From IMG/VR virus record IMGVR_UViG_3300007512_000025, positions 13,428-77,427 of that record: a DNA stretch of 64,000 nucleotides, one strand, 5' to 3'. Shown here piece by piece: positions 21,174-64,000 of the stretch (position 1 is its first letter; each line of letters begins with the position of its first letter). The position numbers and the translations under genes were made by a program. The DNA comes from a virus. The notes beneath the pieces were generated by a model, which saw only the letters and a list, made by a program, of their open reading frames with translations, searched no databases and was not told where the DNA came from.

Positions 21174-21405
21174 GAGAACCTTTGACGATATGTCTTATAC
21201 AGATAAGGAAATGGCGGGGCTACCAGTAAGGTATTTTTTGCTTGACACCAACATAAAATTATTTTTGGAAAATTTCGTTGAATCACTTGACAAACCCGAC
21301 CAATCTGATAATATAGAGGATGTCACAATGGCGCGAGAGTTAATGGTTGAGGCGTCCGAGATTTTACTGGTTGCTATTAAGAGGATGTGTCCTGATGCGA
21401 AATAA
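21157..21405 (+). CDS. Hypothetical protein
   Basis: Short ORF overlapping both neighbours; GGGAG SD. Confidence 0.4.
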   Translation: MQNQIERTFDDMSYTDKEMAGLPVRYFLLDTNIKLFLENFVESLDKPDQSDNIEDVTMARELMVEASEILLVAIKRMCPDAK

Positions 21406-24400: not shown

Positions 24401-24829
24401 ACCAAGAAGAAGTTTGGTGAAAATATTGAGTTGTATGCACCCGAGGCTGACTTTACTGATGAAGAAATGATTGAACATCAGGTCGATTTGACTGGCATCT
24501 TTCCGTTTGAGTTGGTAATTACTGGTGATGTTCTTGAAACGCTCGACTCTTGTGGGTGCCCCCCGCTTGGTGAGTTTGACCCTGAGCTAAAGATTGCTTG
24601 GTTCATCCCTCGGGAGATTATTGAGAAGAAGACAAAGAACGGGAAGGATTACTGGATTGTAAAGGTAATTGATTCAACTAGTTCTGTTGCTTCTATCAAG
24701 TGCTGGGGGATTAAAAAGGGTGTAGACAATCTTTTTATTAACAGACCGTACATGGCTAAGTTAGACTATAGTGAGCAGTGGGGCTTTAGTACCAGAAGTA
24801 TTCGACACAATTTCCGTCTGTTGGCATAA
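21395..24829 (+). CDS. dnaE: DNA polymerase III alpha subunit
   Basis: PHP domain (HAHS, TDHG, ADSHY), GRGSAAGS, PDIDYD, HAGG, KFDILGL, YGFNKSH. Confidence 0.95.
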   Translation: MRNNSTIPFVGLHAHSVAGSPFDALGYPQEHMDYAYNNGMEALALTDHGNCNGLAHQVLHTKKMRAEGKEFKPIYGVEAYFHPSIAGWKDDYDEAKKVKKNASALKDGSTGGAVVEDEQRHFKGLVNRRNHLILLAQNQTGLNNIFKMVSDSFSGDNYYRFPRVDYELLAKHSEGVIAASACLGGVYAGCMWRNAVYDDEGNRTRFDEVGILADMRETTSQMQEIFGDRWYGELQWNNIPEQHLLNQYIIKMSEEFGMKLISTADSHYPNPDAWKDRILYKRLGWLGRKDEVPSELPAGLDEVGYELYPKNGDQMWESYLNYSKECDVDYNDDVVRASITETHNIAMNLIENFLPDSTVRLPDFVVPEGKTATQALVALCLDGMRSMGLMEKPEYVARLKKELEIIDSRGFSKYFLTMKAVADKAVETQLVGPGRGSAAGSLASYVLNITQVDPIKYGLLFSRFMRSDAKDYPDIDYDVAEPMELKERLAEEWGRNTVVPISNWNTLQLRSLIKDISKFYQIPFVEVNAVTGRMLHEATPKAKRKHGITAGVYAPTFEEVMEFSETLQSFLRKYPHVKTHVEALYGQVRSCSRHAGGVVIAENLDKYMPLITSGGVRQAPWSEGQNVRHLEPMGFIKFDILGLASLRMMHNCIKNILRRHHGNDNPTFNEVRDFYDKQLHPDVINFDDQDVYENIFHKGRWAGIFQFTEAGAQTFCVNAKPRSIIDISAITSIFRPGPLSAKVDKNYVEAKENPAGIKYLNDTVREVTEETFGFLIFQEQIALLAHKLGGLTLDEGNMLRKVLTKKGTGKGNIKIKLRDKFVGGCSEKGISVRDSEKLWETFEFFSGYGFNKSHAVSYSILSYQCAWLFHYYPVEWIAAFLDKEPESRKERAINAAKKMGFEVVPIDINMSDRDWQIADDTTLVQPFSSVKGLGDAAIDQILNNRPFTDIEHFLFNDDMVYSKLNKKALDVLVRSQALNSLMDERFTGRKHFWSVVAVDRAKTKKKFGENIELYAPEADFTDEEMIEHQVDLTGIFPFELVITGDVLETLDSCGCPPLGEFDPELKIAWFIPREIIEKKTKNGKDYWIVKVIDSTSSVASIKCWGIKKGVDNLFINRPYMAKLDYSEQWGFSTRSIRHNFRLLA

Positions 24830-33886: not shown

Positions 33887-35470
33887 TTGAGTAAGGTATA
33901 TGATTCTAATCTATCGTTGATTAAAAAGATTGCAACAGGTGTTAACCTGTTGGCAGATAACGTGGGGGCGACCCTTGGACCAAAGGGTCGAAATGTGATT
34001 CTGCAAAAGGCAGGCGAACGCCCTGTCATTACGAAGGACGGCGTGACCGTTGCTTCATTCGTGGACGCTGAAGACCCGTTTGAGAATCTGGGCATCCAAG
34101 TGGTCAAGCAAGCATCTCAGGTGACAGCAGAAGAAGCAGGCGATGGCACTACCACGTCTACGATGATTGCGAGAGGCATTGTTGAGGGTGCGACCAAGCA
34201 CTTGATTGCTGGGGTGTCTCCTACTGAGATTAAACGCGGGATGGATTTTGCCATGACGCAGCTACTAGAGTCCTTGACCAAAGTGGCAAAGCCTCTCACA
34301 TCTTTTGAACAGGTCGAGAACATCGCAGTTATCTCTGCCAATGGCGATAAGAAGTTGGGCGGTTTGATTGCTCAAGCTATCGACCAAGTGGGAAAGCATG
34401 GCGCAATTCAGATTGAACCAGCTAATTCACAGAACACCACGCTTGAATTGATTGAGGGCTTCCAGTTTGATTCTGGATACCTGTCCAAGACTTTCGTTAC
34501 CGACAGGCGTAGGTGGACAGTGCGTCATGAGAACGCACTTGTCCTTGTATACGACGGGGTTATTTCTTCGGTGGAGGAATTGTTTCCCGTGTTGCAACTC
34601 GTTGCCAGAGAGGGTAGAGCCTTGACTGTGGTGGCTGAAGATGTAAAGGACCAAGCACTTGCGGCGTTGATTACCAATGTCACGCGAGGCTCCATGAAGG
34701 TCGCTGCTGTGAAGGCACCGGGCTACGGTGAAGAACGCCGCGCTTGCTTGAGCGACCTCGCCATGTCCGTTGGCGGGACTCTGATAGGTCCAGCCCACGG
34801 CACAACTCTAAAGAATACCAAGTTGACTGACTTGGGGCAGGCTCACACTGTCGAGGCTAAGAAGAACTGGTCTACGTTTGTCGGCGGTCGAGGCGACCCC
34901 GATGTAATCGAGGAAAGAATTAATAATCTCAAGGAAGAAATACTTCAGACCGAGAACATGAAGGAGTGCGACTCCATCCAGCGGAGAATCAACCGACTTG
35001 CTAGTGGCATCGGCATTATCAAGGTCGGTGGAAGCACAGAGATTGAAATGATGGAGGCACTGCATCGTGCTGACGATGCGCTCAAGGCTGTGAAGTCTGC
35101 TCAAGAACAGGGTGTCATTGCAGGCGGCGGTGTCGCTCTGTTGAACGCTGTCGAGGTAGTTAGTCAAGAGGACTTCACTGCGATGACAAGCGCAGAGCAA
35201 GTGGGCGTCCAGATTGTTTTTGATGCCTGCACCGAACCCGTTAGGCAGATGGCTTTGAACGCTGGATTGTCTCCAGATATCATGATTAATAATATTAATT
35301 CTCTGAATTTTGGGTGCGGATATAATTTCTTTACGGGCGAAGATGATGTGGCAATGATGGACGAAGGTATCATCGACCCAGTGAAGGTAACTAAATCTGC
35401 TCTTACAAACGCTGTGTCCGCAGCGGGCACACTAATCACCACAAGTCATGGAATTGTCGAGACAAAATAG
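33887..35470 (+). CDS. groEL: GroEL-like chaperonin
   Basis: TLGPKGRNV, TKDGVTVA, AGDGTTT, ISANGD, KAPGYG, IIDPVKV; TTG start with GGAGG SD. Confidence 0.92.
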   Translation: MSKVYDSNLSLIKKIATGVNLLADNVGATLGPKGRNVILQKAGERPVITKDGVTVASFVDAEDPFENLGIQVVKQASQVTAEEAGDGTTTSTMIARGIVEGATKHLIAGVSPTEIKRGMDFAMTQLLESLTKVAKPLTSFEQVENIAVISANGDKKLGGLIAQAIDQVGKHGAIQIEPANSQNTTLELIEGFQFDSGYLSKTFVTDRRRWTVRHENALVLVYDGVISSVEELFPVLQLVAREGRALTVVAEDVKDQALAALITNVTRGSMKVAAVKAPGYGEERRACLSDLAMSVGGTLIGPAHGTTLKNTKLTDLGQAHTVEAKKNWSTFVGGRGDPDVIEERINNLKEEILQTENMKECDSIQRRINRLASGIGIIKVGGSTEIEMMEALHRADDALKAVKSAQEQGVIAGGGVALLNAVEVVSQEDFTAMTSAEQVGVQIVFDACTEPVRQMALNAGLSPDIMINNINSLNFGCGYNFFTGEDDVAMMDEGIIDPVKVTKSALTNAVSAAGTLITTSHGIVETK

Positions 35471-47704: not shown

Positions 47705-48028
47705 ATGTCAATAGGAATTGGTGACCTCATACGTCTTAAAGATGATGAGCATATGCTTGTCGGTATTGGTATTGTACTTGATAAAAGAGATGATACATAC
47801 GAGTTAGCGGTTGCTATCCTAGAGAATTTCAATGATTACATGACTTCAGTCGAGGAACACTTTGAACCAGAAAGCCTATCAGAAGAAGAAAAGCAGTTAT
47901 TAAAGACGCCCGTTTATCTTGTTCTGTGGCACTCGGCAGATGACCACACGTTTTCGTCGAAGCCGATTTGGATGTACGATTCTGAGATTGAAATTGTTAA
48001 TAAAGCAATTAGGAGTGAAAAACAATAG
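47705..48028 (+). CDS. SH3/KOW-like small protein
   Basis: IGIGDLIRL...GIGIVLD...YLVLW...EIEIV. Confidence 0.55.
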   Translation: MSIGIGDLIRLKDDEHMLVGIGIVLDKRDDTYELAVAILENFNDYMTSVEEHFEPESLSEEEKQLLKTPVYLVLWHSADDHTFSSKPIWMYDSEIEIVNKAIRSEKQ

Positions 48029-49538: not shown

Positions 49539-49766
49539 TTGGTTCTCTCTTGCGATTTGATTGCGCGAAACGTGAGTTATATCACCCAACTGCGCCCGTT
49601 TACGAAGTCTTCGGTGGCGCAGTTGGGCTATGCACAAACCACCGCGTTAACGACCGAGGAATAGCATACGTTCGTGTTGAGTGGTTGAAGCCCGTTGAGC
49701 ATGGCGGTCGGTGGACAAAAACTTCCTCATTCGCTCTGGATAATTTTATTGTTGTGGGTAAGATAC

Positions 49767-49994
49767 ATGGAAAGAAATAATCACGGAAGTCACGCGAGAG
49801 TTGGTGACCTTGTAGAAGTGATGAACCCCATGGGGCAACTGACTGGCATTACTGGGCTGGTTTATAAGCTGGTTGAGGAACCGGGTTTCGGTGACTTCGA
49901 TGACTCCCACCTCCACCGCCACTATTTTATGATTACGGGACTGCCGCACAGGATTAAAGATTCGCTGGTGGTCGTTCGTTCATTTGCAAACTAA
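49767..49994 (+). CDS. SH3/KOW-like small protein
   Basis: RVGDLVEV...GLVYK. Confidence 0.5.
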   Translation: MERNNHGSHARVGDLVEVMNPMGQLTGITGLVYKLVEEPGFGDFDDSHLHRHYFMITGLPHRIKDSLVVVRSFAN

Positions 49995-53370: not shown

Positions 53371-53629
53371 ACTTATTAAATGGCTAATCGTTCTGCCTCT
53401 GGGCATCACAGCGTTTGTAACTGTATCTGGGTTCATGGCATACCTTGTCGTTAGTGGCTGGCTGCTCAACCACGACAATCAAAGGCTCGCAGAGATTTGT
53501 GCCGAAGACGCCCAAGGGGGTTGCCCGCTGCTGTGGCAAGATTATATTAATACAAAACAGGAGAACGAGCGGCTGAAGCTGCAAGTAAGAGAGTGCAATG
53601 TCCTCATCAATCAAGAAATCGAAGATTAA
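53357..53629 (+). CDS. Small membrane protein
   Basis: N-terminal TM helix followed by a coiled coil. Confidence 0.5.
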   Translation: MTMTKLIKWLIVLPLGITAFVTVSGFMAYLVVSGWLLNHDNQRLAEICAEDAQGGCPLLWQDYINTKQENERLKLQVRECNVLINQEIED

Positions 53630-53927
53630 TGTGGGTGACTTAGTGACGCTTGACCCAGAGTCTGTCCTCTATACTACTCATGTTGAATACACCGAGCGAG
53701 TAGGGCTGGTCACTAGTGTGACCAATCGTTATTATCGTCCGCAAGGGTCGGAGGCAATCTATGCACCTTGGGATGATGAGGGGGCTGGGCTGTCTTCACG
53801 CTTGACTGAGGGCGATAAGGTTGATAGAGTCTCGGTCTTGTGGTCGCCGAACAACACAACGACACATGAGCCAGCAGATTGTTTGATAAAGATTGCAAAA
53901 GTAAAAAAAAATGAAGAAAGTCCTTGA
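53598..53927 (+). CDS. SH3/KOW-like protein
   Basis: INVGDLVTL...VGLVTSV...VSVLW. Confidence 0.5.
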   Translation: MSSSIKKSKINVGDLVTLDPESVLYTTHVEYTERVGLVTSVTNRYYRPQGSEAIYAPWDDEGAGLSSRLTEGDKVDRVSVLWSPNNTTTHEPADCLIKIAKVKKNEESP

Positions 53928-56498: not shown

Positions 56499-56504
56499 AT
56501 TCTT

Positions 56505-56741
56505 ATGTGGAAAATTTATAAATATGATGGTCACTGCATTAAAGGCGAGCTTGTGTCCAAGCATCGAAGTCAAACCGCTGCGCTCAAGAAAGCCAAGGAG
56601 GTCATTGGACATTTGACCGAGGTCGAAGAAGTCAACAAGGATGAGCATCTGATTTGGTTGGACGGCGAGAGCGGCAACCCGATGGGCGTGATTGTCCAGT
56701 CGCAGAAAAAGCGTGCGAAAAAATTTCTTGACAAACAATAA
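56505..56741 (+). CDS. Hypothetical protein
   Basis: AAGGAG SD. Confidence 0.55.
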   Translation: MWKIYKYDGHCIKGELVSKHRSQTAALKKAKEVIGHLTEVEEVNKDEHLIWLDGESGNPMGVIVQSQKKRAKKFLDKQ

Positions 56742-56791
56742 AAAGTATGCCATAATAGGTTCATAATCACACACACAGAAAGGGCACACCC

Positions 56792-57793
56792 ATGAACAAA
56801 GATGATTATCTGTTCGCAATTGCAAAAGACTCCAAGTGGGAGGCAACTAATTGCTTCTACTTGAATCTTGACCAGATTGAATACACCGAGCGCCAAGAAG
56901 GAAACGACGGGCGGCTTACCACAAAGACTTCCGACGTTCAGTTGAGACAAGAGTTAGAGGTGACCAATGGTAATTGGTGCCCCATCTCGGTTCATGGTGG
57001 TCCCGACTTGTTCACCTTGGATGACGGGCACAACCGTGTCCGAGAGTTGAAAGCCTTGGGCTACGAGACAGTCAAGTGTATCATGTCCAACTACAATTCG
57101 CCATCGCAGAGGCTTTGGGGAATGTTGTGCGATAACATCTATGCCTCTTGCACACCAGCGAGTCATGGTGATTATGTTGCAGTGTTGGTAAAGGACATCA
57201 AAAAGAATTTGGTTCTAGGCTCCAAGTTTGATGTGGTAACAAAAGAAAGCGTGAAGAAGCTTCTGCTAAAGAATCTTACAGCGCACAACAAGCCCGCCCC
57301 ACATCATAAGACGGTGACCGCTATCGTAAACAAGGTGATGGTCGAGTTGCCCTCCGGTGTTAAGAAGTATACGAACTATACTTCCAAGGAAGATGCAGCG
57401 GGTGCCTTCTCTATTATTAATCCGTGGGGAATGCAAATTGCAAAGCCGGGTGAGATTTGTAAGGACAAGGGCGGGCAAGAGTGGGCTGTGTACTTCGCAG
57501 GCTCCGAAGTGTGGGTGCGCCAGAACGGTGTACACTCTGCACTCAATAAGAAGAAGGCGCACCCAAACGCTAAGGTGCTTTTGGTTGGCTTCGATGAGAA
57601 GATTTATCAAAATGGCGGTGACTTGGCAGAGTTTCGGGAAAAACAGCAAGATGTCGCGGAAGGTATCAACAGCAACCCGTTGCTTAATGGTAACTTGTAC
57701 GACCGATACGCTGTGCTTCCGCAAGTAATTCAAGGCAACGCCCCTGAGAAGCATGACGAGTTGGTAAGGTGGGTTGATTTCCCGTGCAATTAA
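56792..57793 (+). CDS. ParB/Srx N-terminal domain protein
   Basis: PISV...LDDGHNRVRELKALG; promoter TTGACA-17-CATAAT at 56728. Confidence 0.6.
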   Translation: MNKDDYLFAIAKDSKWEATNCFYLNLDQIEYTERQEGNDGRLTTKTSDVQLRQELEVTNGNWCPISVHGGPDLFTLDDGHNRVRELKALGYETVKCIMSNYNSPSQRLWGMLCDNIYASCTPASHGDYVAVLVKDIKKNLVLGSKFDVVTKESVKKLLLKNLTAHNKPAPHHKTVTAIVNKVMVELPSGVKKYTNYTSKEDAAGAFSIINPWGMQIAKPGEICKDKGGQEWAVYFAGSEVWVRQNGVHSALNKKKAHPNAKVLLVGFDEKIYQNGGDLAEFREKQQDVAEGINSNPLLNGNLYDRYAVLPQVIQGNAPEKHDELVRWVDFPCN

Positions 57794-58050
57794 AGGTAGG
57801 TGACATAATCCGATTCCGTTTTAAGGGCAGCAATACCCGCAACGACTGGTCGCCGCCTGCTCTTGTTGCGGAACACTTCCATACGATGGAGCCACACGAA
57901 AGGGTTTATCGTAAGGAAGGGAATCCTTGGGAGTCATCAAAGCTTTGGGTGGTAATATGCGACGGGATGCGCTGCGTAGCGAATGAAGATACACATGAAA
58001 TAGAAATACTTAGCCCAGCAGGTTTTATGCCCAAGGTGGTGGAAGATTAA
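57784..58050 (+). CDS. SH3/KOW-like small protein
   Basis: LKVGDIIRF...EIEILS. Confidence 0.55.
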   Translation: MQLKVGDIIRFRFKGSNTRNDWSPPALVAEHFHTMEPHERVYRKEGNPWESSKLWVVICDGMRCVANEDTHEIEILSPAGFMPKVVED

Positions 58051-58627
58051 TAATCCAGAATTAAAAATATTTATCGGTCCAATGTATGGGGGGAAGACTA
58101 CCAAGCTTCTGTCTGCCTTGGAGCGTTACGTCTACCAGAAGAAGAAGGTCGCACTGTTCAAGCCGTCGATAGATAATCGCTACTCGACCGAGATGGTTGT
58201 CACGCACTCAGGTGCAGAGTGGCAAGCTTACCGAGTACCAGACGGATTCGCCATCCTTGAGTATCTACCAGAGGACACAGAGATAGTCGCAGTCGATGAG
58301 CAATTCATGATACCCGGTTCTGCTAATGCGCTGTTGGAGTTGTTCGCGTTAGGCAAGACTGTCCTCGTCTCGACCCTTCAGCTATCTTACGAGCCTTTCC
58401 CCTTTCGGGAAGTGTCGAGGCTGTTGCCCTTTGCCACGTCCATCGAGGTATGCCCTGCCGTTTGCGCCCACTGCGATGCTGACGCATATTACACACGCAG
58501 GACAAGCGGTGGCACCGAGGTCATCGAGATTGGTGGAGCCGAAGCGTATGAGCCTGTGTGCTTTAAACATTACGGTGAGTTGCACACGAAAATCTTGTTA
58601 GGGAAAAGCCAGCATGAAGGTGAGTGA
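58046..58627 (+). CDS. tdk: Thymidine kinase (type II), probable ATT start
   Basis: LKIFIGPMYGGKTT, DNRY, VDEQF, CAHC, IGGAEAYEPVCFKH. Confidence 0.85.
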   Translation: MNNPELKIFIGPMYGGKTTKLLSALERYVYQKKKVALFKPSIDNRYSTEMVVTHSGAEWQAYRVPDGFAILEYLPEDTEIVAVDEQFMIPGSANALLELFALGKTVLVSTLQLSYEPFPFREVSRLLPFATSIEVCPAVCAHCDADAYYTRRTSGGTEVIEIGGAEAYEPVCFKHYGELHTKILLGKSQHEGE

Positions 58628-58769
58628 CTTGGTAAGCTGGCACGGAAAGACTGCTCTCGTTTTGCAGGAAGGTATGGCGGCATCAAGCGGTATCATCTGG
58701 CATGTGCTATTAGATGGCAAGGTGATGGTGGTGTTTGAGGATGAAATGACGGTGATAAGTGAAGGGTAA
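58614..58769 (+). CDS. MKVGDLV-family small protein (not in ORF track)
   Basis: MKVSDLVSW...MTVISEG. Confidence 0.6.
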   Translation: MKVSDLVSWHGKTALVLQEGMAASSGIIWHVLLDGKVMVVFEDEMTVISEG

Positions 58770-59517
58770 TTTGAAGATAGATTTAAGAAAGGGTGACTGC
58801 TTGGAATTGATGAAGCAGCTTGAAGATGGCAGCATCGACATGGTTCTGGCTGATTTGCCATACGGGACAACCCGCAACAAGTGGGACACAATTATACCCT
58901 TGGAGCCTCTGTGGGAGGAATATTGGAGGGTGCTGAAGTCAACCGGGATTGTGTGCCTCACGGCATCGCAGCCATTCACCAGCACTCTTATCATGAGTCA
59001 GGTGAAATACTTCAAGCACGAATGGATATGGATTAAGAACCGGGGCAGTAACTTTGCCAACACGGTCAGGGAACCGATGAAGGAACACGAACAGGTTCTC
59101 GTCTTCAGCAAGGGCAAGTGGACGTACAACAAGCAGATGCAAGAGCGCACCGGAGCGGGCGCAGCCCGAGCCAAGTATTCTGTTGAGCATAAGACCCAGA
59201 CCAAGAATTATAATAAGTTTAGCGGGAGGAAGCACCACACCATTTCAAAGCTGAGGGTGCCATCAAGCTGGCAAAAGTTTAATATCGACACATCAAGGCT
59301 GCATCCAACAATCAAGCCCCTGCCCCTGTTTGAGTATATGATTAAGACGTATACTGATGAGGGTGATACGGTGCTGGACAATACAATGGGCAGCGCGACG
59401 ACTGCGATTGCTTGCATCAACTTGAATAGAAACTTCGTGGGCATGGAAATTGAAGAAGAATATTATCAGACAGCGGTTCAGCGGGTGAATGAGCATCGGA
59501 AGAGTGATGAAGAGTGA
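58759..59517 (+). CDS. DNA methyltransferase (N4C/N6A, beta class)
   Basis: GDCLELM, DLPYG, HPTIKP, VLDNTMGSATT. Confidence 0.9.
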   Translation: MKGNLKIDLRKGDCLELMKQLEDGSIDMVLADLPYGTTRNKWDTIIPLEPLWEEYWRVLKSTGIVCLTASQPFTSTLIMSQVKYFKHEWIWIKNRGSNFANTVREPMKEHEQVLVFSKGKWTYNKQMQERTGAGAARAKYSVEHKTQTKNYNKFSGRKHHTISKLRVPSSWQKFNIDTSRLHPTIKPLPLFEYMIKTYTDEGDTVLDNTMGSATTAIACINLNRNFVGMEIEEEYYQTAVQRVNEHRKSDEE

Positions 59518-59558
59518 AAAGAATTAATTTAACTAAAAAAGAAGGGAGAATAAACATT

Positions 59559-59792
59559 ATGACACCAGAATGTATTGAATGTGGTGAGGAATATAACCCG
59601 AAGCGTCAGGCTTTGGGCTATAACACTTGCTTGGAGTGTGGCGACAATAACGCTCGCACTATCTACGAGGCGCGAACGAGGGCAAACTTGCGGGCAATGA
59701 CGCCCAATGCTTCGTCGGGTGATGTGGATGAGAACCTTCTCAAGCCACGGGAGTTGGCATTTGTTAAGGCACCGAGGCACACTCACCGATGA
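59559..59792 (+). CDS. C4 zinc-finger protein (TraR/DksA-like)
   Basis: CIECGEEYNPKRQALGYNTCLEC. Confidence 0.55.
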   Translation: MTPECIECGEEYNPKRQALGYNTCLECGDNNARTIYEARTRANLRAMTPNASSGDVDENLLKPRELAFVKAPRHTHR

Positions 59793-60418
59793 ACAACGGC
59801 GATATTATTAAAACAGTATACGACAACCAATATGAGATAATTAAAAGCATCGAGAAACTATATGTTCCAGATGGTTTTGATGTGGACCCGACGTATAGCA
59901 AGGGTGTGTTTTATAAAACTGGTGAAGTGCAACAGCCCCGCCGCAAGTTCGACTTGTTCCCGAGGACTGACGACACGGTGGAAGCTAACGCGAACAACCT
60001 GCCGCTTGATGACGCATCGGTTGGGAGCATCATGTTTGACCCGCCGTTCCTTGCTGGGTACACCAAGCCCAAGCCTACTGGGGTTATGGGCAAGAGGTTC
60101 CACGGCTTCAGGTATGTCAACGACCTGTGGGATTGGTACGATGAGTGCTTGAGTGAGTTCAGCAGGGTGCTGAAGAAGAACGGGGTGCTGGTGTTCAAGT
60201 GCCAAGACACCGTATCATCGGGCAAGAACTGGTTTTCGCACTGTTTTATCATGAACAAGGCAATTCAACAAGGATTTTACCCTAGAGATATGTTTGTGCT
60301 GACTGCAAAGAGCCGATTGATTGGTCACAACCACGGTAATCAGAAGCACGCACGCAAGTTTCACTCTTATTTCTGGGTGTTTGAGAAGAAATCACATAAA
60401 ATTCCGTATAATTTATAA
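59789..60418 (+). CDS. DNA amino-methyltransferase
   Basis: DPTYSKG (motif I-like), FDPPF, SRVLKKNG. Confidence 0.75.
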   Translation: MNNGDIIKTVYDNQYEIIKSIEKLYVPDGFDVDPTYSKGVFYKTGEVQQPRRKFDLFPRTDDTVEANANNLPLDDASVGSIMFDPPFLAGYTKPKPTGVMGKRFHGFRYVNDLWDWYDECLSEFSRVLKKNGVLVFKCQDTVSSGKNWFSHCFIMNKAIQQGFYPRDMFVLTAKSRLIGHNHGNQKHARKFHSYFWVFEKKSHKIPYNL

Positions 60419-60436
60419 TTTTATTTAAAAAAGTGC

Positions 60437-60465
60437 TTGACAATGCCGTAGGCTTATGGTATATT
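60437..60465 (+). promoter_or_regulatory. Sigma70-type promoter for the RNA cluster
   Basis: A-tract, TTGACA-17-TATATT with TG extension; predicted start near 60472. Confidence 0.7.
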
Positions 60466-60471
60466 ATAGAA

Positions 60472-60571
60472 GTGATGGGGGCAGTGAGTTCCCGCCCGTG
60501 ACGAAAGCCGGAAGGTTCATCCCCCGTGTGACGAAAGCGTGGAGTAGGTTCTGCCTCGTTGTTCCCATCAC
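60472..60571 (+). ncRNA. Structured ncRNA 1 with twin GTGACGAAAGC elements
   Basis: 12-bp closing stem GTGATGGGGGCA/TGTTCCCATCAC beginning at the predicted TSS. Confidence 0.5.
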
Positions 60572-60582
60572 CCTTTAAAACT

Positions 60583-60750
60583 GGAAGGCGGGCATCCTCA
60601 GAGATGCTGCATTGTTCTTTGAGAAATGTGGGGAGTACAGACCAGAGGGGTTGCCTACGGGCAACAACGTGGTTGCGTAAGCGTGGTCGAAGTAATGACC
60701 TGTTAGGCTGTACTCAGTTGAGGGAAGTTGGGAACCCTCAACATCTTTTT
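60583..60750 (+). ncRNA. Structured ncRNA 2
   Basis: GAGTACAG/CTGTACTC, GTTGCC-TACG-GGCAAC, GGTC/GACC and GTTGAGGG/CCCTCAAC stems followed by a T-run. Confidence 0.5.
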
Positions 60751-60925
60751 GGAAGGGCTTTGTGAGTGGCACACACCACAATATCAAAGGTTGAAAATTG
60801 GTAGTTTAGCTGTGTGGTTAAATTATTCAGTCGCTGGAGCGACTGCTGCTATGCCCAGAGAGCGCAAGACCGTTTAGCGATGGTTGCAGTTCAGACGGTG
60901 GTTCGATTCCACCCCCTTCTTGCCA
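60751..60925 (+). ncRNA. Oversized tRNA-like RNA (175 nt)
   Basis: GGAAGGG/CCCTTCT acceptor stem, TGTG-AGTGG-CACA D-like arm, GGTGG-TTCGATT-CCACC T arm, ends GCCA. Confidence 0.55.
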
Positions 60926-60926
60926 T

Positions 60927-61002
60927 TCCGACATAGCTCAGTTGGTAGAGCAGATGACTGTTAATCATCGGGTCGTAGGTTCAAGCCCTACTGTCGGAGC
61001 CA
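60927..61002 (+). tRNA. trnN: tRNA-Asn(GTT)
   Basis: Canonical 76-nt cloverleaf: TCCGACA/TGTCGGA, anticodon loop CT-GTT-AA, TTCAAGC T-loop, encoded CCA. Confidence 0.95.
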
Positions 61003-61021
61003 TTTTTAGGAGAATTTAATT

Positions 61022-61258
61022 ATGCAAATCGAAATCGGTAATCTAGTAAAAGTAAAAGAGTGTGAAGCTTCAAATTGGCGGGGGTTTTTTGGCGCTTGTG
61101 CTTGCTTTTTCTGCGACACAGGCTCAAACCGTATCGGCTTGGTTCTTGGTCCAGCCCCGCGCAATAGCTGGGCTGTGCAGTTTGACACAGGGCAGTGGCG
61201 ACTGGACTGTTCGGACTTTGAGAACGGTAAAGTTGAGGTGATTAGTGCAAGTCGGTGA
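61022..61258 (+). CDS. MKVGDLV-family small protein
   Basis: MQIEIGNLVKV...VEVISASR. Confidence 0.6.
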   Translation: MQIEIGNLVKVKECEASNWRGFFGACACFFCDTGSNRIGLVLGPAPRNSWAVQFDTGQWRLDCSDFENGKVEVISASR

Positions 61259-61466
61259 TTTAGTCATAAGAAGAATTCTGCACGTTCCTGATTGGAAAGC
61301 AAGGGCGGCGATTAACCAGCGTGAGTTGTTGGGGCACGGTGTTGTCATGACAAAACAAATGGCGGGCGAGCCAAGCCACCCTTGTGTGACAGTTTATTAC
61401 CCGAAGGTTGGAGCGACATACGATATTGCCGAATCGTTGCTGGAGGTTCTCAGTGAAGGTCGGTGA
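61245..61466 (+). CDS. MKVGDLV-family small protein
   Basis: MQVGDLV...LEVLSEGR. Confidence 0.65.
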   Translation: MQVGDLVIRRILHVPDWKARAAINQRELLGHGVVMTKQMAGEPSHPCVTVYYPKVGATYDIAESLLEVLSEGR

Positions 61467-61674
61467 TTTGGTAAGATTTGGTAGCACAACACCAGACAAG
61501 CGTACACCGATTCAAAAGGTGGGTGGCGTGGTGATTGAAGACCATACATTGCTGTGTAGCCACGGCGGGGTGGAACCGTACCGGATGGGAAGACTGCTGA
61601 TTCTATGGTCAGATATCCGAGGACTTCAATTGGAAGTGTTTGCAACCCTTGAGGTAATAAATGAAAGTCGGTGA
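61453..61674 (+). CDS. MKVGDLV-family small protein
   Basis: GTG start MKVGDLVRF...LEVINESR. Confidence 0.65.
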   Translation: MKVGDLVRFGSTTPDKRTPIQKVGGVVIEDHTLLCSHGGVEPYRMGRLLILWSDIRGLQLEVFATLEVINESR

Positions 61675-61885
61675 TTTGGTTAGAATTAAGAATACTTCTA
61701 CGGGTGATGCCCGTTGGATGGTAGAGCGGTTCCGCGAGCGGACTCCGCTGCTGGTTTGTGAGTTTGATTCCTTTGGTCAACCTTACCCACCCAGTGCGAA
61801 CCACGTTTCGGTTCTCGACATTGATGGCGAGCGCAAGTGGGTGCCGACTCGTCGTGTGATGATTTGGGAAATGGAAGGACATTAA
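61661..61885 (+). CDS. MKVGDLV-family small protein
   Basis: MKVGDLVRIK. Confidence 0.65.
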   Translation: MKVGDLVRIKNTSTGDARWMVERFRERTPLLVCEFDSFGQPYPPSANHVSVLDIDGERKWVPTRRVMIWEMEGH

Positions 61886-61894
61886 TAAGTGGAA

Positions 61895-61978
61895 ATGAAA
61901 ACAGTAATTATGGTTGTAGGGCTTGTGGGTGCAATTTTTGCATCGGCACTCACTATTACATTGTGGGCAATAGCGTGA
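61895..61978 (+). CDS. 27-aa single-TM peptide (not in ORF track)
   Basis: MKTVIMVVGLVGAIFASALTITLWAIA; GTGA overlap with the next gene. Confidence 0.4.
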   Translation: MKTVIMVVGLVGAIFASALTITLWAIA

Positions 61979-62187
61979 AAGAGGTTGACCTGCATGGTGT
62001 CAGGCACAGAGATGTATATGCAGTGTTGGAAAAGCTTTGCGTTGCAGGCGACCTGCCCTTCATCGTCATTACGGGTAAGTCGGCAACCATGAAAACTGTG
62101 GTAGAGAATGCTGTCGCAGCGTTCGGATTGCACGCGAAAGAAAAGCTGGGTAACAGCGGGAGGTTAATAATCAGTGAAAGCATATGA
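61975..62187 (+). CDS. Stand-alone Smr-domain protein
   Basis: VDLHG...VITGKS...GNSG. Confidence 0.65.
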   Translation: MKEVDLHGVRHRDVYAVLEKLCVAGDLPFIVITGKSATMKTVVENAVAAFGLHAKEKLGNSGRLIISESI

Positions 62188-62458
62188 TTTAGTCAAGGCA
62201 GGTGATTTAGTCAGGGACATGTCCCTGAAGCGACTGTATACTGTCGGCTCGTATTATAGATTCGATTATGATGACGAGTATCCCGAATATGTGCCCGAGC
62301 AATCTGCGCCATCGCCAACAGCCATATTTATTAAGTGGCACATCGTAGATGGCGAAGAAGACGGCGAGTTTTATAGTTGTGCAAAGGTTCTATGGAACCA
62401 CGGTGGAGTGGGAAACATTCTCAGGCATAATTTGGAGTTGATAAGTGAAGGTCGGTGA
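62174..62458 (+). CDS. MKVGDLV-family small protein
   Basis: MKAYDLVKAGDLVRD...LELISEGR. Confidence 0.65.
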   Translation: MKAYDLVKAGDLVRDMSLKRLYTVGSYYRFDYDDEYPEYVPEQSAPSPTAIFIKWHIVDGEEDGEFYSCAKVLWNHGGVGNILRHNLELISEGR

Positions 62459-62630
62459 CTTGGTGGGGGTAAAGGATTCAGTCGGCACGTTGCCAATTGG
62501 CATCGTGGTTAAAATCTTGGAGTCGGGTCCAAGACACGTTGCCGTGTCGTGGAACGATTGTGGGCCCATACTTGAAGAATATGTTGAAGATTTGGAAGTG
62601 ATAAGCGAGGTGACAAGTGAAGGTCGGTGA
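62445..62630 (+). CDS. MKVGDLV-family small protein
   Basis: MKVGDLV...GIVVKI...VSW...LEVISEVTSEGR. Confidence 0.65.
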   Translation: MKVGDLVGVKDSVGTLPIGIVVKILESGPRHVAVSWNDCGPILEEYVEDLEVISEVTSEGR

Positions 62631-62817
62631 TTTAGTGACGGGCAACTTGCGTGGGAAAGAAGACCAAGTGGGCGTGGTTCTGTCTGAGCCTCGGCTGGTG
62701 ACAACCGACAGCGGTGTGGATGTCCGCGTGGTCGAGGTTGAATGGATTGGATGGGACTTGAGAGAAGACTATTCTTATCCACATTTAAAAGTTATATCGA
62801 AGGGAGGGGTAAAATGA
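62617..62817 (+). CDS. MKVGDLV-family small protein
   Basis: MKVGDLV...GVVL...VEW...LKVISKG. Confidence 0.65.
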   Translation: MKVGDLVTGNLRGKEDQVGVVLSEPRLVTTDSGVDVRVVEVEWIGWDLREDYSYPHLKVISKGGVK

Positions 62818-63038
62818 TTCTTAAATCTTTTGTTCTGGTTGGTGTCATCGTATCACACGATGATGTTCTTTCAACGGTAGAGTTCAACACGAACCCTGCT
62901 GTCAATGGTGGACCAGCTATGGCTGTGATGCAAAACTCAGCGATTCCATGCAAAATTGAGGTCGGTAAGAAGATTTATGTGGTCAAAGACGAGAACATGG
63001 AACATGCTCAGGTAACTTGCGAGGTCGATACGCAATGA
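62814..63038 (+). CDS. Hypothetical small beta protein
   Basis: GGAGG SD, ATGA overlaps. Confidence 0.55.
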   Translation: MILKSFVLVGVIVSHDDVLSTVEFNTNPAVNGGPAMAVMQNSAIPCKIEVGKKIYVVKDENMEHAQVTCEVDTQ

Positions 63039-63202
63039 AACTGGGTGATTTAGTGCGTGCCACTTGGTCTGACGGGCTGGTTTTGGTCGGTCGGTACACT
63101 GGCTCGGAGCGAGGATACATTCTTCTCGCTGCTGATGACGGACATAAGATTGTTTGCGACCCAAATAGTGTAAAATTTGAGGTGATTGATGATAAAGGAT
63201 AA
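63035..63202 (+). CDS. MKVGDLV-family small protein
   Basis: MKLGDLVRA...FEVIDDKG. Confidence 0.6.
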   Translation: MKLGDLVRATWSDGLVLVGRYTGSERGYILLAADDGHKIVCDPNSVKFEVIDDKG

Positions 63203-63977
63203 AATTTTATGTGGTAATTGTACCGAAGCATTAAAAGAAATACCAGACGAGAGCGTTGACTTGGTGGTGACATCACCGCCATACGACAAACTCAGGACAT
63301 ACAAAGGATACGAGTTTGACTTTGAGGGCATAGCCCAGCAATTGTTGAGGGTCGTAAAGAAAGGCGGTGTCGTTGTCTGGGTGGTGGGTGATGCAACAGT
63401 GAAAGGAAGCGAAACAGGCAGCAGCTTTAGGCAGGCATTGCACTTTAAAGATATTGGCTTCAACCTTCACGACACAATGATATACCACAAGGACAATCCA
63501 GTGCCGGTCGGAGGGCGCAACAGATATTATCAAGCATTTGAGTACATGTTTGTTCTTTCCAAGGGGAAGCCGAAGACTTTTAATCCCATCATCGTGCCCC
63601 GAAGGAATAAGCACAACGATAAGCGCACGGTTCGATACCGAGCAGTGACAAGAAATGCTGATGGCTCATTTGCAAAGAAGGTAGTACCCATTAAAGAGAA
63701 TGTCAAGAAGCAGAACCTTTGGACATATGTGGTGAGCGGTGGAGCGTCAACGAAAGACAAGATAGCCCACAAGCATCCTGCTATCTTCCCCGAGAAGTTG
63801 GCTGAAGACCACATTCTTTCATGGAGCAACGAGGGCGATGTAGTGCTTGACCCAATGTGCGGCAGTGGAACGACACTAAAGATGGCAGCATTGAACAATA
63901 GAAGTTATATTGGTATCGACGTATCAGAAGAATACTGCGGCGTAGCCAAAGAAAGAATCGAGGGCTGCGGTGGATAA
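63189..63977 (+). CDS. DNA methyltransferase (beta class, likely N4-cytosine)
   Basis: TSPPY, HPAIFP, VLDPMCGSGTT. Confidence 0.9.
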   Translation: MIKDKILCGNCTEALKEIPDESVDLVVTSPPYDKLRTYKGYEFDFEGIAQQLLRVVKKGGVVVWVVGDATVKGSETGSSFRQALHFKDIGFNLHDTMIYHKDNPVPVGGRNRYYQAFEYMFVLSKGKPKTFNPIIVPRRNKHNDKRTVRYRAVTRNADGSFAKKVVPIKENVKKQNLWTYVVSGGASTKDKIAHKHPAIFPEKLAEDHILSWSNEGDVVLDPMCGSGTTLKMAALNNRSYIGIDVSEEYCGVAKERIEGCGG

Positions 63978-64000
63978 GCCATGGTACTTATATGTGGTAA

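What the first reader, a model, noticed from the sequence alone, without database searches (positions are those of the whole stretch)
58614..63202. Array of small MKVGDLV (KOW/SH3-like) genes stitched together by a triple-duty 30-bp junction repeat
Seen: junctions GAGGTGATTAGTGCAAGTCGGTGATTTAGT (61235), GAGGTTCTCAGTGAAGGTCGGTGATTTGGT (61443), GAGGTAATAAATGAAAGTCGGTGATTTGGT (61651), GAGTTGATAAGTGAAGGTCGGTGACTTGGT (62435), GAGGTGACAAGTGAAGGTCGGTGATTTAGT (62607). In one frame each encodes the upstream C-terminus (EVISEGR-stop). It also contains the SD (GAGGT) and, in another frame, the downstream start MKVGDLV, giving a fixed 14-nt overlap. Gene interiors are highly divergent. Stutters of the repeat are visible (EVISEVTSEGR at ~62595; MKAYDLVKAGDLV at 62174). 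Non-family genes use half-junctions: tdk ends ..HEGE into MKVSDLV, the MTases at 58759 and 63189 start from VISEG/EVIDD junctions, and the Smr gene ends IISESI. Inference: a cassette array in which recombination at the junction adds, deletes or swaps whole genes while preserving translational coupling. This would be an integrase-free, integron-like diversification system for a small beta-barrel scaffold, possibly host-protein binders or anti-defence factors.
Basis: partly seen in the sequence, partly recalled or inferred. Interest (0 to 1): 0.85.

Follow-up and report, generated by a model that had tools for sequence, protein, structure and literature searches.

The report
Shufflable overlapping mini-gene cassettes in phage
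An uncultured marine phage carries chains of tiny genes for one small barrel-shaped protein, joined by a short overlap that ends one gene and starts the next, and related phages have gained, lost and reordered whole genes at that overlap; what the proteins do is unknown.

Summary
Five 30-40 nt junctions (61232, 61440, 61648, 62432, 62604) each carry the upstream C-terminus (LEVISEGR-stop), a Shine-Dalgarno site and the downstream start (MKVGDLV), with a fixed 14-nt overlap. About ten family genes sit among tdk, three DNA methylases and a tRNA.

The proteins model as five-stranded SH3/KOW-like barrels and match no Pfam or PHROG family, yet the profile finds 7,525 clusters.

The cassette-shuffling reading is supported:
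- Near-identical contigs differ by exactly one cassette flanked by a perfect 20-nt junction repeat.
- A relative of this phage lacks exactly one cassette (172 nt) of this array.
- 65% of homology breakpoints lie within 30 nt of a junction, against 7% at random.
- Cassettes 85-97% identical keep a homologous neighbour in only 12-22% of cases.

A dedicated integron-like system is not supported. Junction conservation fits protein, stop-codon and ribosome-site constraints and is about equal within and between genomes. No integrase or junction RNA structure was found, and one candidate deletion lies outside the junctions.

The best reading is general recombination using a constrained overlap as microhomology, a coding-sequence analogue of PeSL shuffling in T4-type phages. 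This scan has reported the same thing on at least 15 other genomes. Function is unknown.

The parts
56728..56756 (+). Sigma-70-like promoter (TTGACA-17-CATAAT, TG extended) ahead of the first operon (56792 gene, tdk, cassette, methylases)
   Evidence: 11 of 12 consensus matches. Function is inferred.
57784..58050 (+). 88-aa ORF starting MQLKVGDII; possible very distant family member
   Evidence: Motif only. The family HMM does not recover it.
58082..58627 (+). Thymidine kinase; its stop lies 14 nt inside the next cassette
   Evidence: PF00265, E 2.6e-34; coordinates.
58614..58769 (+). Cassette gene, 51 aa (MKVSDLV...TVISEG)
   Evidence: Family HMM E 1e-7 (this sequence is in the training alignment A2).
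58759..59517 (+). N6/N4 DNA methylase, started from a half-junction with an 11-nt overlap
   Evidence: PF01555, E 8.5e-33.
59789..60418 (+). Second, shorter N6/N4 methylase-like gene
   Evidence: PF01555, E 4.7e-8.
60437..60465 (+). Sigma-70-like promoter (TTGACA-17-TATATT, TG extended) ahead of the non-coding stretch, tRNA-Asn and the main cassette chain
   Evidence: 11 of 12 consensus matches.
60927..61002 (+). tRNA-Asn (GTT)
   Evidence: 70.9 bits.
61022..61258 (+). Cassette gene, 78 aa, divergent N-terminus (MQIEIGNLV...EVISASR)
   Evidence: Family HMM E 1e-3; canonical C-terminal junction.
61232..61271 (+). Junction repeat copy 1
61245..61466 (+). Cassette gene, 73 aa (MQVGDLV...LEVLSEGR); a 55-56% identical orthologue sits in relative G004 in a different context
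61440..61479 (+). Junction repeat copy 2
61453..61674 (+). Cassette gene, 73 aa (MKVGDLV...LEVINESR)
61648..61687 (+). Junction repeat copy 3
61661..61885 (+). Cassette gene, 74 aa, ending without a junction (..IWEMEGH, then TAA TAA)
   Evidence: Family HMM E 2.3e-6, not in the training alignment.
61837..62187 (+).
   Evidence: No Pfam match.
62174..62458 (+). Cassette gene, 94 aa, with an 18-nt tandem stutter of the N-terminal motif (MKAYDLVKAGDLV)
   Evidence: Family HMM E 5.5e-7, not in the training alignment; (family D3).
62432..62471 (+). Junction repeat copy 4
62445..62630 (+). Cassette gene, 61 aa, with a C-terminal stutter (EVISEVTSEGR); this is the modelled protein, and the cassette is absent from a related phage contig
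   Evidence: AlphaFold2 pLDDT 84.5; run X5 record 27 shows a net 172-nt absence.
62604..62643 (+). Junction repeat copy 5
62617..62817 (+). Cassette gene, 66 aa; keeps LKVIS although no junction follows
62814..63038 (+). Non-family 74-aa gene of unknown function; a 50% identical homologue lies in the complete relative G005, within 1 kb of two cassette-like ORFs
63035..63202 (+). Cassette gene, 55 aa (MKLGDLV...FEVIDDKG)
63189..63977 (+). N6/N4 DNA methylase started from a half-junction (GAGGTGATT, 14-nt overlap); its homologues in 16 other viral contigs have no cassettes nearby
   Evidence: PF01555, E 1.9e-46.

Best explanation
The locus is part of the hyperplastic accessory region of an uncultured marine myovirus with a Gp23-type capsid and DnaE, RecA and GroEL genes. 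It holds polycistronic chains of paralogous genes of about 50-95 codons. Each encodes a five-stranded SH3/KOW-like beta-barrel with a conserved core (MKVGDLV strand 1, G-I-V-V strand 2, V-x-W strand 3, L-E-V-I-S strand 5) and variable, indel-rich loops.

Consecutive genes share a standard overlap, TGGAGGTnATnA-[A/G]TG-AAR-GTC-GGT-GA. In the upstream frame this reads L-E-V-I-S/N-E-S/G-R-stop. In the downstream frame it supplies the Shine-Dalgarno site, the start codon and M-K-V-G-D. The upstream stop TGA is made by the Gly-Asp codons GGT GAY of the next gene.

This overlap most likely couples translation along the chain (inferred). Its nucleotide conservation comes from stacked constraints: two reading frames, the stop codon and the ribosome-binding site. 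It does not need selection as a recombination signal.

Because 14-20 nt of near-identical DNA recur every 150-290 nt, the general recombination or replication-slippage machinery crosses over there. The phage's own RecA may take part, but the enzyme is not identified. The result is precise loss, gain, replacement and reordering of whole genes that keep their expression signals. The products (indels, swaps, shuffled neighbours) are shown; the mechanism is inferred.

The proteins are real and under purifying selection. Their function is unknown. The best guess is small binders of host factors, perhaps early genes; the only support for early timing is two near-consensus sigma-70-type promoters upstream.
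For: Anatomy:
- Five junctions, each with a 14-nt overlap.
- In 119 other viral loci there are 754 cassette-like ORFs (median 62 aa). Of these, 323 are followed by a family gene with exactly a 14-nt overlap and 39 with a 4-nt overlap.

Fold:
- AlphaFold2 pLDDT 84.5, five strands, low-confidence tail.
- Foldseek TM 0.63-0.77 to Spt5 KOW, Tudor, PWWP and R67 DHFR.
- The family profile gives weak hits to a designed SH3 and to uL24/NusG KOW, E 0.002-0.009.
- Conserved core and variable loops.

Recombination at the junction:
- L014 and L017 are 99.5-100% identical over 11 kb but differ by one 176-nt cassette flanked by the perfect 20-nt repeat ATGAAAGTCGGTGATTTGGT.
- L070 versus L114 and L083 versus L102/L025 show insertions and swaps with breakpoints at junction starts.
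- 65% of 134 internal ends of HSPs (BLAST alignments) lie within 30 nt of a junction, against 7% for random positions; within arrays the figures are 92% against 28%.
- Cassette pairs at least 97% identical share a homologous neighbour in 93% of cases; pairs 85-97% identical do so in only 12-22%.
- At this window's own locus, a 5.9-kb contig from another study (run X5) is colinear at 87-98% identity. It lacks exactly 172 nt, which equals 62617 minus 62445. It also carries about 590 extra nt at the 62805/62813 gene boundary.

Constraint rather than signal:
- GGT is used in 100% of junction Gly codons and GAG in 96% of junction Glu codons.
- GTG and ATC are enriched upstream, spelling GGAGGTGATC, the complement of the 16S rRNA 3' tail (established knowledge).
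- Identity at free sites is 0.484 within genomes and 0.427 between genomes.
- The LKVIS strand is kept where no junction follows, and MKVGDLV is kept in G005 where genes are mostly not joined by the junction.

Real genes: dN/dS 0.19 in 48 independent orthologue pairs.

No tyrosine recombinase in the window's contig or in five complete relatives, and no serine recombinase in the window's contig. The phage encodes a RecA. Two near-consensus sigma-70-type promoters head the operons.
Against: - Some synonymous bias lies outside the dual-coded part: ATC 60-66% against 32% background, GTA 43% against 19%, TTR Leu enriched.
- Synonymous divergence at the gene termini is lower than in interiors (dS 0.375 against 0.648).
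- I attribute both to the extended ribosome-binding site and start-proximal codon preference. Selection on the DNA as a recombination substrate, or gene conversion, cannot be excluded. A small but significant within-genome excess of similarity exists (p <= 0.001).
- Translational coupling, expression timing and protein function are untested.
- All comparative evidence comes from metagenome assemblies. The evidence at the window's own locus comes from Logan contigs, not raw reads.
- No close relative of the window could be fetched as sequence.
Confidence: 0.78

Rival explanations
1. The junction is a selected, standardised recombination connector. On this view it is a true integrase-free analogue of integron attC sites or PeSLs, maintained because it lets co-infecting phages exchange mini-genes, possibly through excised mini-circles, while keeping them expressed.
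For: - The same 19-20 nt core occurs in more than 119 viral contigs, in a clade whose DnaE is only 41-68% identical, while cassette interiors share no DNA similarity.
- There is synonymous bias beyond the dual-coded part, and dS is lower at the termini.
- Neighbour linkage is lost very quickly.
- Non-family genes (tdk, two methylases, the 61837 gene) are plugged in with the same overlap geometry.
Against: - The biased synonymous sites spell an extended Shine-Dalgarno sequence or are AT-rich start-proximal codons.
- Junctions are about as similar between genomes as within them (0.691 against 0.705 over 40 nt).
- There is no conserved RNA or DNA structure and no recombinase.
- A candidate 1381-nt deletion in the same array uses an unrelated 8-nt microhomology.
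- The complete relative G005 keeps 11 family genes mostly without the junction.
Confidence: 0.14
2. The chain makes a stoichiometric multi-subunit or tethered assembly. On this view neighbouring barrels form hetero-oligomers, or are occasionally fused by frameshifting at CGG-TGA, and the overlap exists to balance their amounts.
For: - The fixed overlap suggests coupled, equimolar synthesis (inference).
- Natural fused forms exist: P0019 has five tandem domains in one 370-aa protein, and P0002 and P0142 have two.
Against: - Cassette content and order change freely between close relatives, which does not fit fixed partnerships.
- Fused forms are rare among the 150 best hits listed: four with more than one matched stretch (P0002, P0004, P0019, P0142), not counting P0001, read as an artefact.
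- The CGG-TGA context lacks a slippery re-pairing codon (read from the sequence).
Confidence: 0.04
3. The apparent shuffling is an artefact of metagenome assembly, with chimeric joins at the repeated junction.
For: All comparisons use assembled contigs. The junction is a repeated word, and many short 'joints' (side 20-32 nt) clearly come from other phages' junctions.
Against: - Perfect identity between junction copies is only 14-20 nt, shorter than the assembly k-mers (Logan uses 31), so graph mis-joins are unlikely.
- L014 and L017 are separate contigs from two metagenome datasets and agree at 99.5-100% except for one cassette.
- Run X5 record 27 is colinear over four long pieces.
Confidence: 0.04

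Closest known systems
PeSL (promoter-early stem-loop) cassettes in the hyperplastic regions of T4-type phages (Arbiol, Comeau & Krisch 2010, PMC2839356; Comeau et al. 2014, PMC4122927)
   Same: Both are short conserved repeats flanking small, mostly orphan genes in hyperplastic regions of large myoviruses. In both, homologous recombination between repeats gives insertion, deletion and replacement of whole genes that keep their expression signals. Neither has an integrase; the phage's general recombination machinery is invoked.
   Different: - PeSLs are intergenic transcription elements, a sigma-70 promoter plus a terminator stem-loop. This junction is intragenic and translational: stop, ribosome site and start, read in two frames.
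- It holds no promoter and no stem-loop.
- It joins members of one protein family rather than unrelated ORFans.
- PeSL mini-circles were shown experimentally; none could be tested here.
Integron gene-cassette arrays (IntI integrase with attI/attC sites)
   Same: Arrays of promoterless small genes expressed from an upstream promoter, with cassette-level gain, loss and reordering.
   Different: No tyrosine recombinase in this contig or in five complete relatives. The repeat is a direct coding overlap, not an imperfect inverted-repeat attC. Nothing indicates site-specific recombination.
KOW motif / SH3-like small beta-barrels (NusG and Spt5 KOW, uL24, Tudor, PWWP, R67 DHFR)
   Same: A five-stranded barrel of about 55 residues. 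The N-terminal G-D-x-V strand followed by a G-x-V strand resembles the KOW signature. Foldseek TM is 0.63-0.77, and the best hit is the Pyrococcus furiosus Spt4/5 entry 3p8b chain B at 28% identity. Profile hits to uL24 and NusG have E about 0.008.
   Different: No Pfam KOW, SH3 or DHFR_2 model is matched at its threshold. One cassette searched alone against PDB sequences gave no R67 DHFR match, and the R67 active-site motif (recalled as VQIY) is not seen in it by eye. These are stand-alone proteins in arrays, not domains of transcription or ribosomal proteins.
Translationally coupled overlapping genes (ATGA or TGATG overlaps; termination-reinitiation)
   Same: The stop of one gene lies next to or inside the start region of the next, with the Shine-Dalgarno site inside the upstream coding sequence.
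   Different: The overlap is a fixed 14 nt rather than 1 or 4 nt, and it is repeated as a nearly identical sequence dozens of times. Coupling itself is untested.

Membership tests
PeSL cassettes (T4-type phages) | The repeat contains a sigma-70-like early promoter | tested here: not met
   The only near-consensus + strand promoters are at 56728 and 60437, not in the junctions.
PeSL cassettes (T4-type phages) | The repeat contains a stable terminator stem-loop | tested here: not met
   Folds of the five junction regions give z-scores from -1.3 to +1.6 with no shared hairpin.
PeSL cassettes (T4-type phages) | Intergenic location flanking unrelated ORFans | tested here: not met
   The junction lies inside two overlapping coding sequences of one protein family.
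PeSL cassettes (T4-type phages) | Indels and replacements between close relatives have crossover points inside the repeat | tested here: met
PeSL cassettes (T4-type phages) | Excised mini-circles | not testable with these tools
   Only assembled contigs were available. Inverse PCR or raw long reads are needed.
Integron | IntI-type tyrosine recombinase next to the array | tested here: not met
   PF00589 is absent from the 77-kb contig and from five complete relatives, while the controls were positive. PF00239 is absent from the contig.
Integron | attC-type imperfect inverted repeats at cassette boundaries | tested here: not met
   The boundaries are direct repeats with no significant hairpin.
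KOW domain (Pfam PF00467 and relatives) | Sequence match to the family model above its threshold | tested here: not met
   The only hit is PF23038 (KOW6_SPT5), E 0.051, 13.5 bits against a cut-off of 27, for one of ten proteins. Profile against PDB gives uL24 and NusG at E about 0.008.
SH3-like small beta-barrel fold | Five-stranded barrel topology with structural similarity to known members | tested here: met
   Model pLDDT 84.5 with five strands. TM 0.63-0.77 to KOW, Tudor, PWWP and R67 DHFR, although Foldseek E-values are only 0.016-0.1.
Type II (R67) dihydrofolate reductase, PF06442 | Sequence membership | tested here: not met
   No Pfam hit for any of the ten proteins. The one cassette searched alone against PDB sequences (61245-61466) gave no R67 match. 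The resemblance is at fold level only (26% identity over 57 residues). The active-site motif was compared by eye only.

The most novel reading that the evidence does not exclude
The arrays are an evolvable library of KOW/SH3-like binder proteins aimed at host factors, for takeover or anti-defence. Their standard 14-nt overlap connector has itself been favoured by selection because it lets co-infecting phages of this clade plug in, drop and swap mini-genes, and even unrelated genes such as methylases and tdk, with expression preserved. Excised mini-circles would be the exchange intermediates. That would make it a translational-level counterpart of integrons and PeSLs.
Probability: 0.2. Interest if true: 0.85.

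Novelty: new variant of a known kind. Interest (0 to 1): 0.6.

Why it matters
Repeat-mediated modular shuffling of small accessory genes in large phages is known from PeSLs, which are intergenic promoter/terminator elements. Here the homology tract is a coding overlap. Every recombinant therefore automatically keeps an intact upstream C-terminus, stop, ribosome site, start and downstream N-terminus.

The protein family is very large and unnamed: 7,525 clusters at 50% identity. It is absent from Pfam and PHROGs, and neither the one cassette protein nor the one junction searched matched any cultured phage. These are abundant early-region-like genes in a widespread clade of marine myoviruses about which nothing is known.

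If the barrels prove to be host-factor binders, the arrays would be a natural, recombination-ready scaffold library. If not, this remains a clean, quantifiable example of how stacked coding constraints create recombination hot spots.

Tried and rejected
- Close relatives of the window: megablast against GenBank phages found no match. The 56792 protein found no relatives in viral contigs. A 24-nt word from the 63189 methylase was absent from viral and metagenome contigs.
- Cultured phages: tblastn of one cassette and blastn of one junction against 50,697 phage records gave nothing real.
- Pfam and PHROGs gave no family for any of the ten cassettes. Pfam did not support the 'Smr' label.
- Homodimer prediction of the 62445 protein returned no verdict. 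It is not used as evidence either way.
- R67 DHFR idea: raised by the fold hits and an Atlas lead at 0.86. Dropped because there is no sequence membership and the catalytic motif is not seen by eye.
- Junction RNA hairpin or sequestered ribosome site: not found.
- Strong concerted evolution of junctions within a genome: the effect is only 0.057.
- Most short 'joints' (side 20-32 nt, e.g. 61264 to 61658, 61684 to 62607) are other phages' junction words laid on this array. They are not counted as evidence.
- P0001, with eight 'domains', looks like a near-perfect tandem-repeat or wrong-frame artefact and was not counted as a fused form.
- Programmed +1 frameshift at CGG-TGA: considered and rejected from the sequence context, since there is no re-pairing codon and the ribosome-site spacing is unlike prfB.
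- Contig L152 overlaps the window's last 119 nt identically and may continue the genome. It holds no strict cassettes downstream of the methylase.

Full report

Yes. The window is the last 64 kb of a 77-kb IMG/VR virus record, estimated 43% complete, and all its genes are on the + strand.

The five quoted junctions are at 61232, 61440, 61648, 62432 and 62604. Their 17-nt core occurs five times, against 0.06 expected from shuffles. At each junction the upstream gene ends 14 nt inside the downstream gene. The upstream frame reads (L)EVIS/N-E-G/S-R-stop. The downstream frame reads GTG or ATG, then K-V-G-D-L-V.

The upstream stop TGA is formed by the Gly-Asp codons GGT GAY. GAGGT lies 5-6 nt before the start.

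The half-junctions with tdk, the two methylases and the 61837-62187 gene are as described, and so are the two stutters (62174 and about 62595). One correction: the 'Smr' label has no Pfam support.

An HMM of the family also finds weaker members upstream, at 47705-48028, 49695-49994 and 53598-53927.

**2. What phage is this, and what surrounds the array?**

- The phage encodes DnaE (Pol III alpha), RecA, DnaB, ribonucleotide reductase and GroEL.
- The contig begins with the end of a Gp23-type capsid gene.
- Its DnaE is only about 30% identical to that of any cultured phage. It is 65-68% identical to the DnaE of seven uncultured marine contigs and 41% identical to that of two larger ones; five of the nine are complete genomes of 187-293 kb, and the five tested also carry Gp23.
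- Against four of these relatives, almost none of the genes between 40 and 64 kb are shared. This part of the window is therefore a hyperplastic accessory region.
- Two near-consensus sigma-70-type promoters, at 56728 and 60437, head two operons. The second operon starts with a non-coding stretch and tRNA-Asn.
- tdk (PF00265) and three N6/N4 DNA methylases are interleaved with the cassettes.

**3. The protein family**

- None of the ten genes matches Pfam or PHROGs.
- AlphaFold2, run with a 76-sequence alignment, gives a confident five-stranded barrel (pLDDT 84.5). The last seven residues, the junction-encoded tail, have low confidence.
- Foldseek places the model among SH3-like small barrels: Spt5 KOW, Tudor, PWWP and R67 DHFR, with TM 0.63-0.77 but weak E-values.
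- A profile search of PDB sequences gives only weak hits to a designed SH3 and to uL24/NusG KOW.
- Conservation is confined to the strands: M1-V7, G19-V22, V34, W36, W44 and L50-S54. The three loops vary and carry the indels.
- The family is huge. The profile finds 7,525 clusters at 50% identity with E <= 0.001. They include rare fused forms with two or five tandem domains.
- The one cassette protein and the one junction searched found nothing real in cultured phage genomes.
- Orthologous cassettes evolve under purifying selection: dN/dS is 0.19 in 48 independent pairs. These are real genes, and nothing suggests ongoing hypermutation. The diversity lies among old paralogues.

**4. The junction elsewhere**

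The 19-mer TGAARGTCGGTGAYTTRGT occurs in more than 119 viral contigs, often in runs of up to 11. When this window's array is compared with those loci at the DNA level, only the 33-40 nt junctions match, at 90-97% identity.

Across those loci I found 754 cassette-like ORFs with a median length of 62 aa. Of these, 323 are followed by another family gene with exactly a 14-nt overlap and 39 with a 4-nt overlap. Complete genomes hold 2-9 strict junction starts, all on one strand, with none in the control pattern.

**5. Do genomes change at the junction?**

- L014 and L017 are 99.5-100% identical over 11 kb, apart from one 176-nt cassette. That cassette is flanked in L014 by the perfect 20-nt direct repeat ATGAAAGTCGGTGATTTGGT, which is present once in L017.
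- L070 versus L114 and L083 versus L102/L025 show extra, replaced and relocated cassettes, with every breakpoint at a junction start.
- Over all locus pairs, 65% of 134 internal ends of HSPs (BLAST alignments) at 90% identity or more fall within 30 nt of a junction start, against 7% of random positions. Inside arrays the figures are 92% against 28%.
- Cassette pairs at least 97% identical still have a homologous neighbour in 93% of cases. Pairs 85-97% identical do so in only 12-22%, and pairs 55-70% identical in 2-7%.

For this window's own array, assembled contigs of public runs were laid on 56500-64000. A 5.9-kb contig from a different study (run X5, record 27) is colinear with 61933-64000 at 87-98% identity. 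It differs in three ways:
- It joins 62464 to 62653 with 16 other letters between. That is a net loss of 172 nt, exactly the distance between the junction starts 62445 and 62617, so one whole cassette is missing.
- It carries about 590 extra nt between 62805 and 62813, the boundary between two genes.
- Its counterpart of 62043-62292 cannot be aligned.

A second X5 contig has the 58605-58746 cassette body unalignable between flanks of 92-94% identity. A third replaces 60739-61002, which includes tRNA-Asn, with 6 nt.

That condition is not met.

**6. Is the junction more than stacked constraints?**

- Dual-coded sites are extreme: GGT 100% and GTC 61-80%.
- The Glu codon in the ribosome site is GAG in 96% of cases.
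- Sites outside the overlap are also biased. Upstream Val is GTG in 45-52% against a 26% background. Upstream Ile is ATC in 60-66% against 32%. Downstream Leu is mostly TTR, and downstream Val is GTA in 43% against 19%.

The upstream preferences spell GGAGGTGATC. That is the exact complement of the conserved 16S rRNA 3' tail, GAUCACCUCC (established knowledge). They therefore read as an extended Shine-Dalgarno site. The downstream preferences are AT-rich start-proximal codons. This fit is consistent, not proven: only 20% of junctions have 8 or more contiguous matches to the template.

The Glu in L-E-V-I falls from 82% to 54% when no junction follows, so it is partly driven by the ribosome site. 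The hydrophobic L-x-V-I strand persists without a junction, for example at 62617-62817 and in the G005 genes.

Junctions are nearly as similar between genomes as within them: 0.691 against 0.705 over 40 nt, and 0.427 against 0.484 at free sites. Shared constraint, not concerted evolution, therefore maintains them. Synonymous divergence is lower at the gene termini (0.375 against 0.648), as dual coding predicts.

No RNA structure is shared by the junctions. No tyrosine recombinase is present in this contig or in five complete relatives, and no serine recombinase in this contig.

In the source study's samples, contigs also suggest a 1381-nt deletion joining 61745 to 63127. It uses an unrelated 8-nt microhomology, CGCTGCTG, and the join is out of frame. 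The shorter side of that joint is only 30-38 nt, so this is a hint, not a result. If real, it shows that general illegitimate recombination also acts on this array.

**7. Conclusion**

The cassette-array reading is right at the level of outcome: whole genes are gained, lost, replaced and reordered at the junction, and expression signals are preserved. The 'system' reading is not supported. The most economical mechanism is general homologous or microhomology recombination, or replication slippage, acting on a 14-20 nt tract that is kept constant by two reading frames, a stop codon and a ribosome-binding site.

The closest known case is PeSL-mediated shuffling in T4-type phages (PMC2839356, PMC4122927). 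This locus differs in being translational and intragenic, and in joining one protein family.

No paper in the searchable library mentions the motif. The scan's own index shows the same phenomenon reported on at least 15 other genomes with the same conclusion. I reached mine before seeing those notes.

New in this report:
- the codon-level decomposition of the junction;
- the within-genome versus between-genome test;
- the neighbour-linkage decay;
- the dN/dS estimate;
- the evidence at this window's own locus;
- the finding that this clade combines a Gp23-type capsid with DnaE.

Function remains unknown. A homodimer prediction gave no verdict.

Noticed in passing
window 60466-60926 (conserved core about 60625-60752): The strong promoter at 60437 is followed by about 460 nt of non-coding sequence. 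It contains a roughly 130-nt element, including GTGGTTGCGTAAGCGTGG, that ends in a terminator-like hairpin plus T-run at 60727-60752. The element is conserved in three other contigs of the clade (L023, L057, L099) and has no Rfam family. It is possibly a phage small RNA.
   Followed up: partly
window 60739-61002: In a related phage contig (run X5, record 26), the stretch holding tRNA-Asn and about 190 nt before it is replaced by 6 nt. The tRNA is therefore itself an indel between close relatives.
   Followed up: partly
window 61745/63127: Contigs from three runs of the source study join 61745 to 63127. That would be a 1381-nt deletion at the 8-nt microhomology CGCTGCTG, giving an out-of-frame hybrid of two cassettes, at depths similar to the full-length path. 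Support is thin because the shorter side of the joint is only 30-38 nt.
   Followed up: partly
window 58759-59517, 59789-60418, 63189-63977: Three N6/N4-type DNA methylase genes lie within about 5 kb, interleaved with the cassettes. Homologues of the third methylase in 16 other viral contigs have no cassettes nearby.
   Followed up: partly
G000:C1:85-516; window 12466-13599, 21347-24829, 33887-35470: The phage combines a T4-type (Gp23) capsid gene with a DnaE-type replicative polymerase, RecA and GroEL. Five relatives of 189-293 kb, four of them complete, share the Gp23 plus DnaE combination. No cultured phage has a DnaE above about 31% identity.
   Followed up: partly
proteins P0019, P0002, P0142: Natural in-frame fusions of the family exist: five tandem barrels in one 370-aa protein, with linkers that still read ..EEEKVM-KFKVGD.., and several two-barrel proteins. 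In P0002 the junction reads LEVVKQ-VKVGDLV, as if the junction frame had shifted.
   Followed up: no
window 60490-60508 and 60520-60538: A direct repeat, TCCCGCCCGTGACGAAAGC and TCCCCCGTGTGACGAAAGC, 30 nt apart, lies just downstream of the 60437 promoter.
   Followed up: no
L152 (IMGVR_UViG_3300007511_001396), bases 1-119 = window 63882-64000: A 74-kb viral contig overlaps the last 119 nt of the window identically and may be the continuation of this genome. Its first 8 kb hold small ORFs but no strict MKVGDLV cassettes; two ORFs there end ..LQIISEVKP and ..WLIISEESPI.
   Followed up: partly
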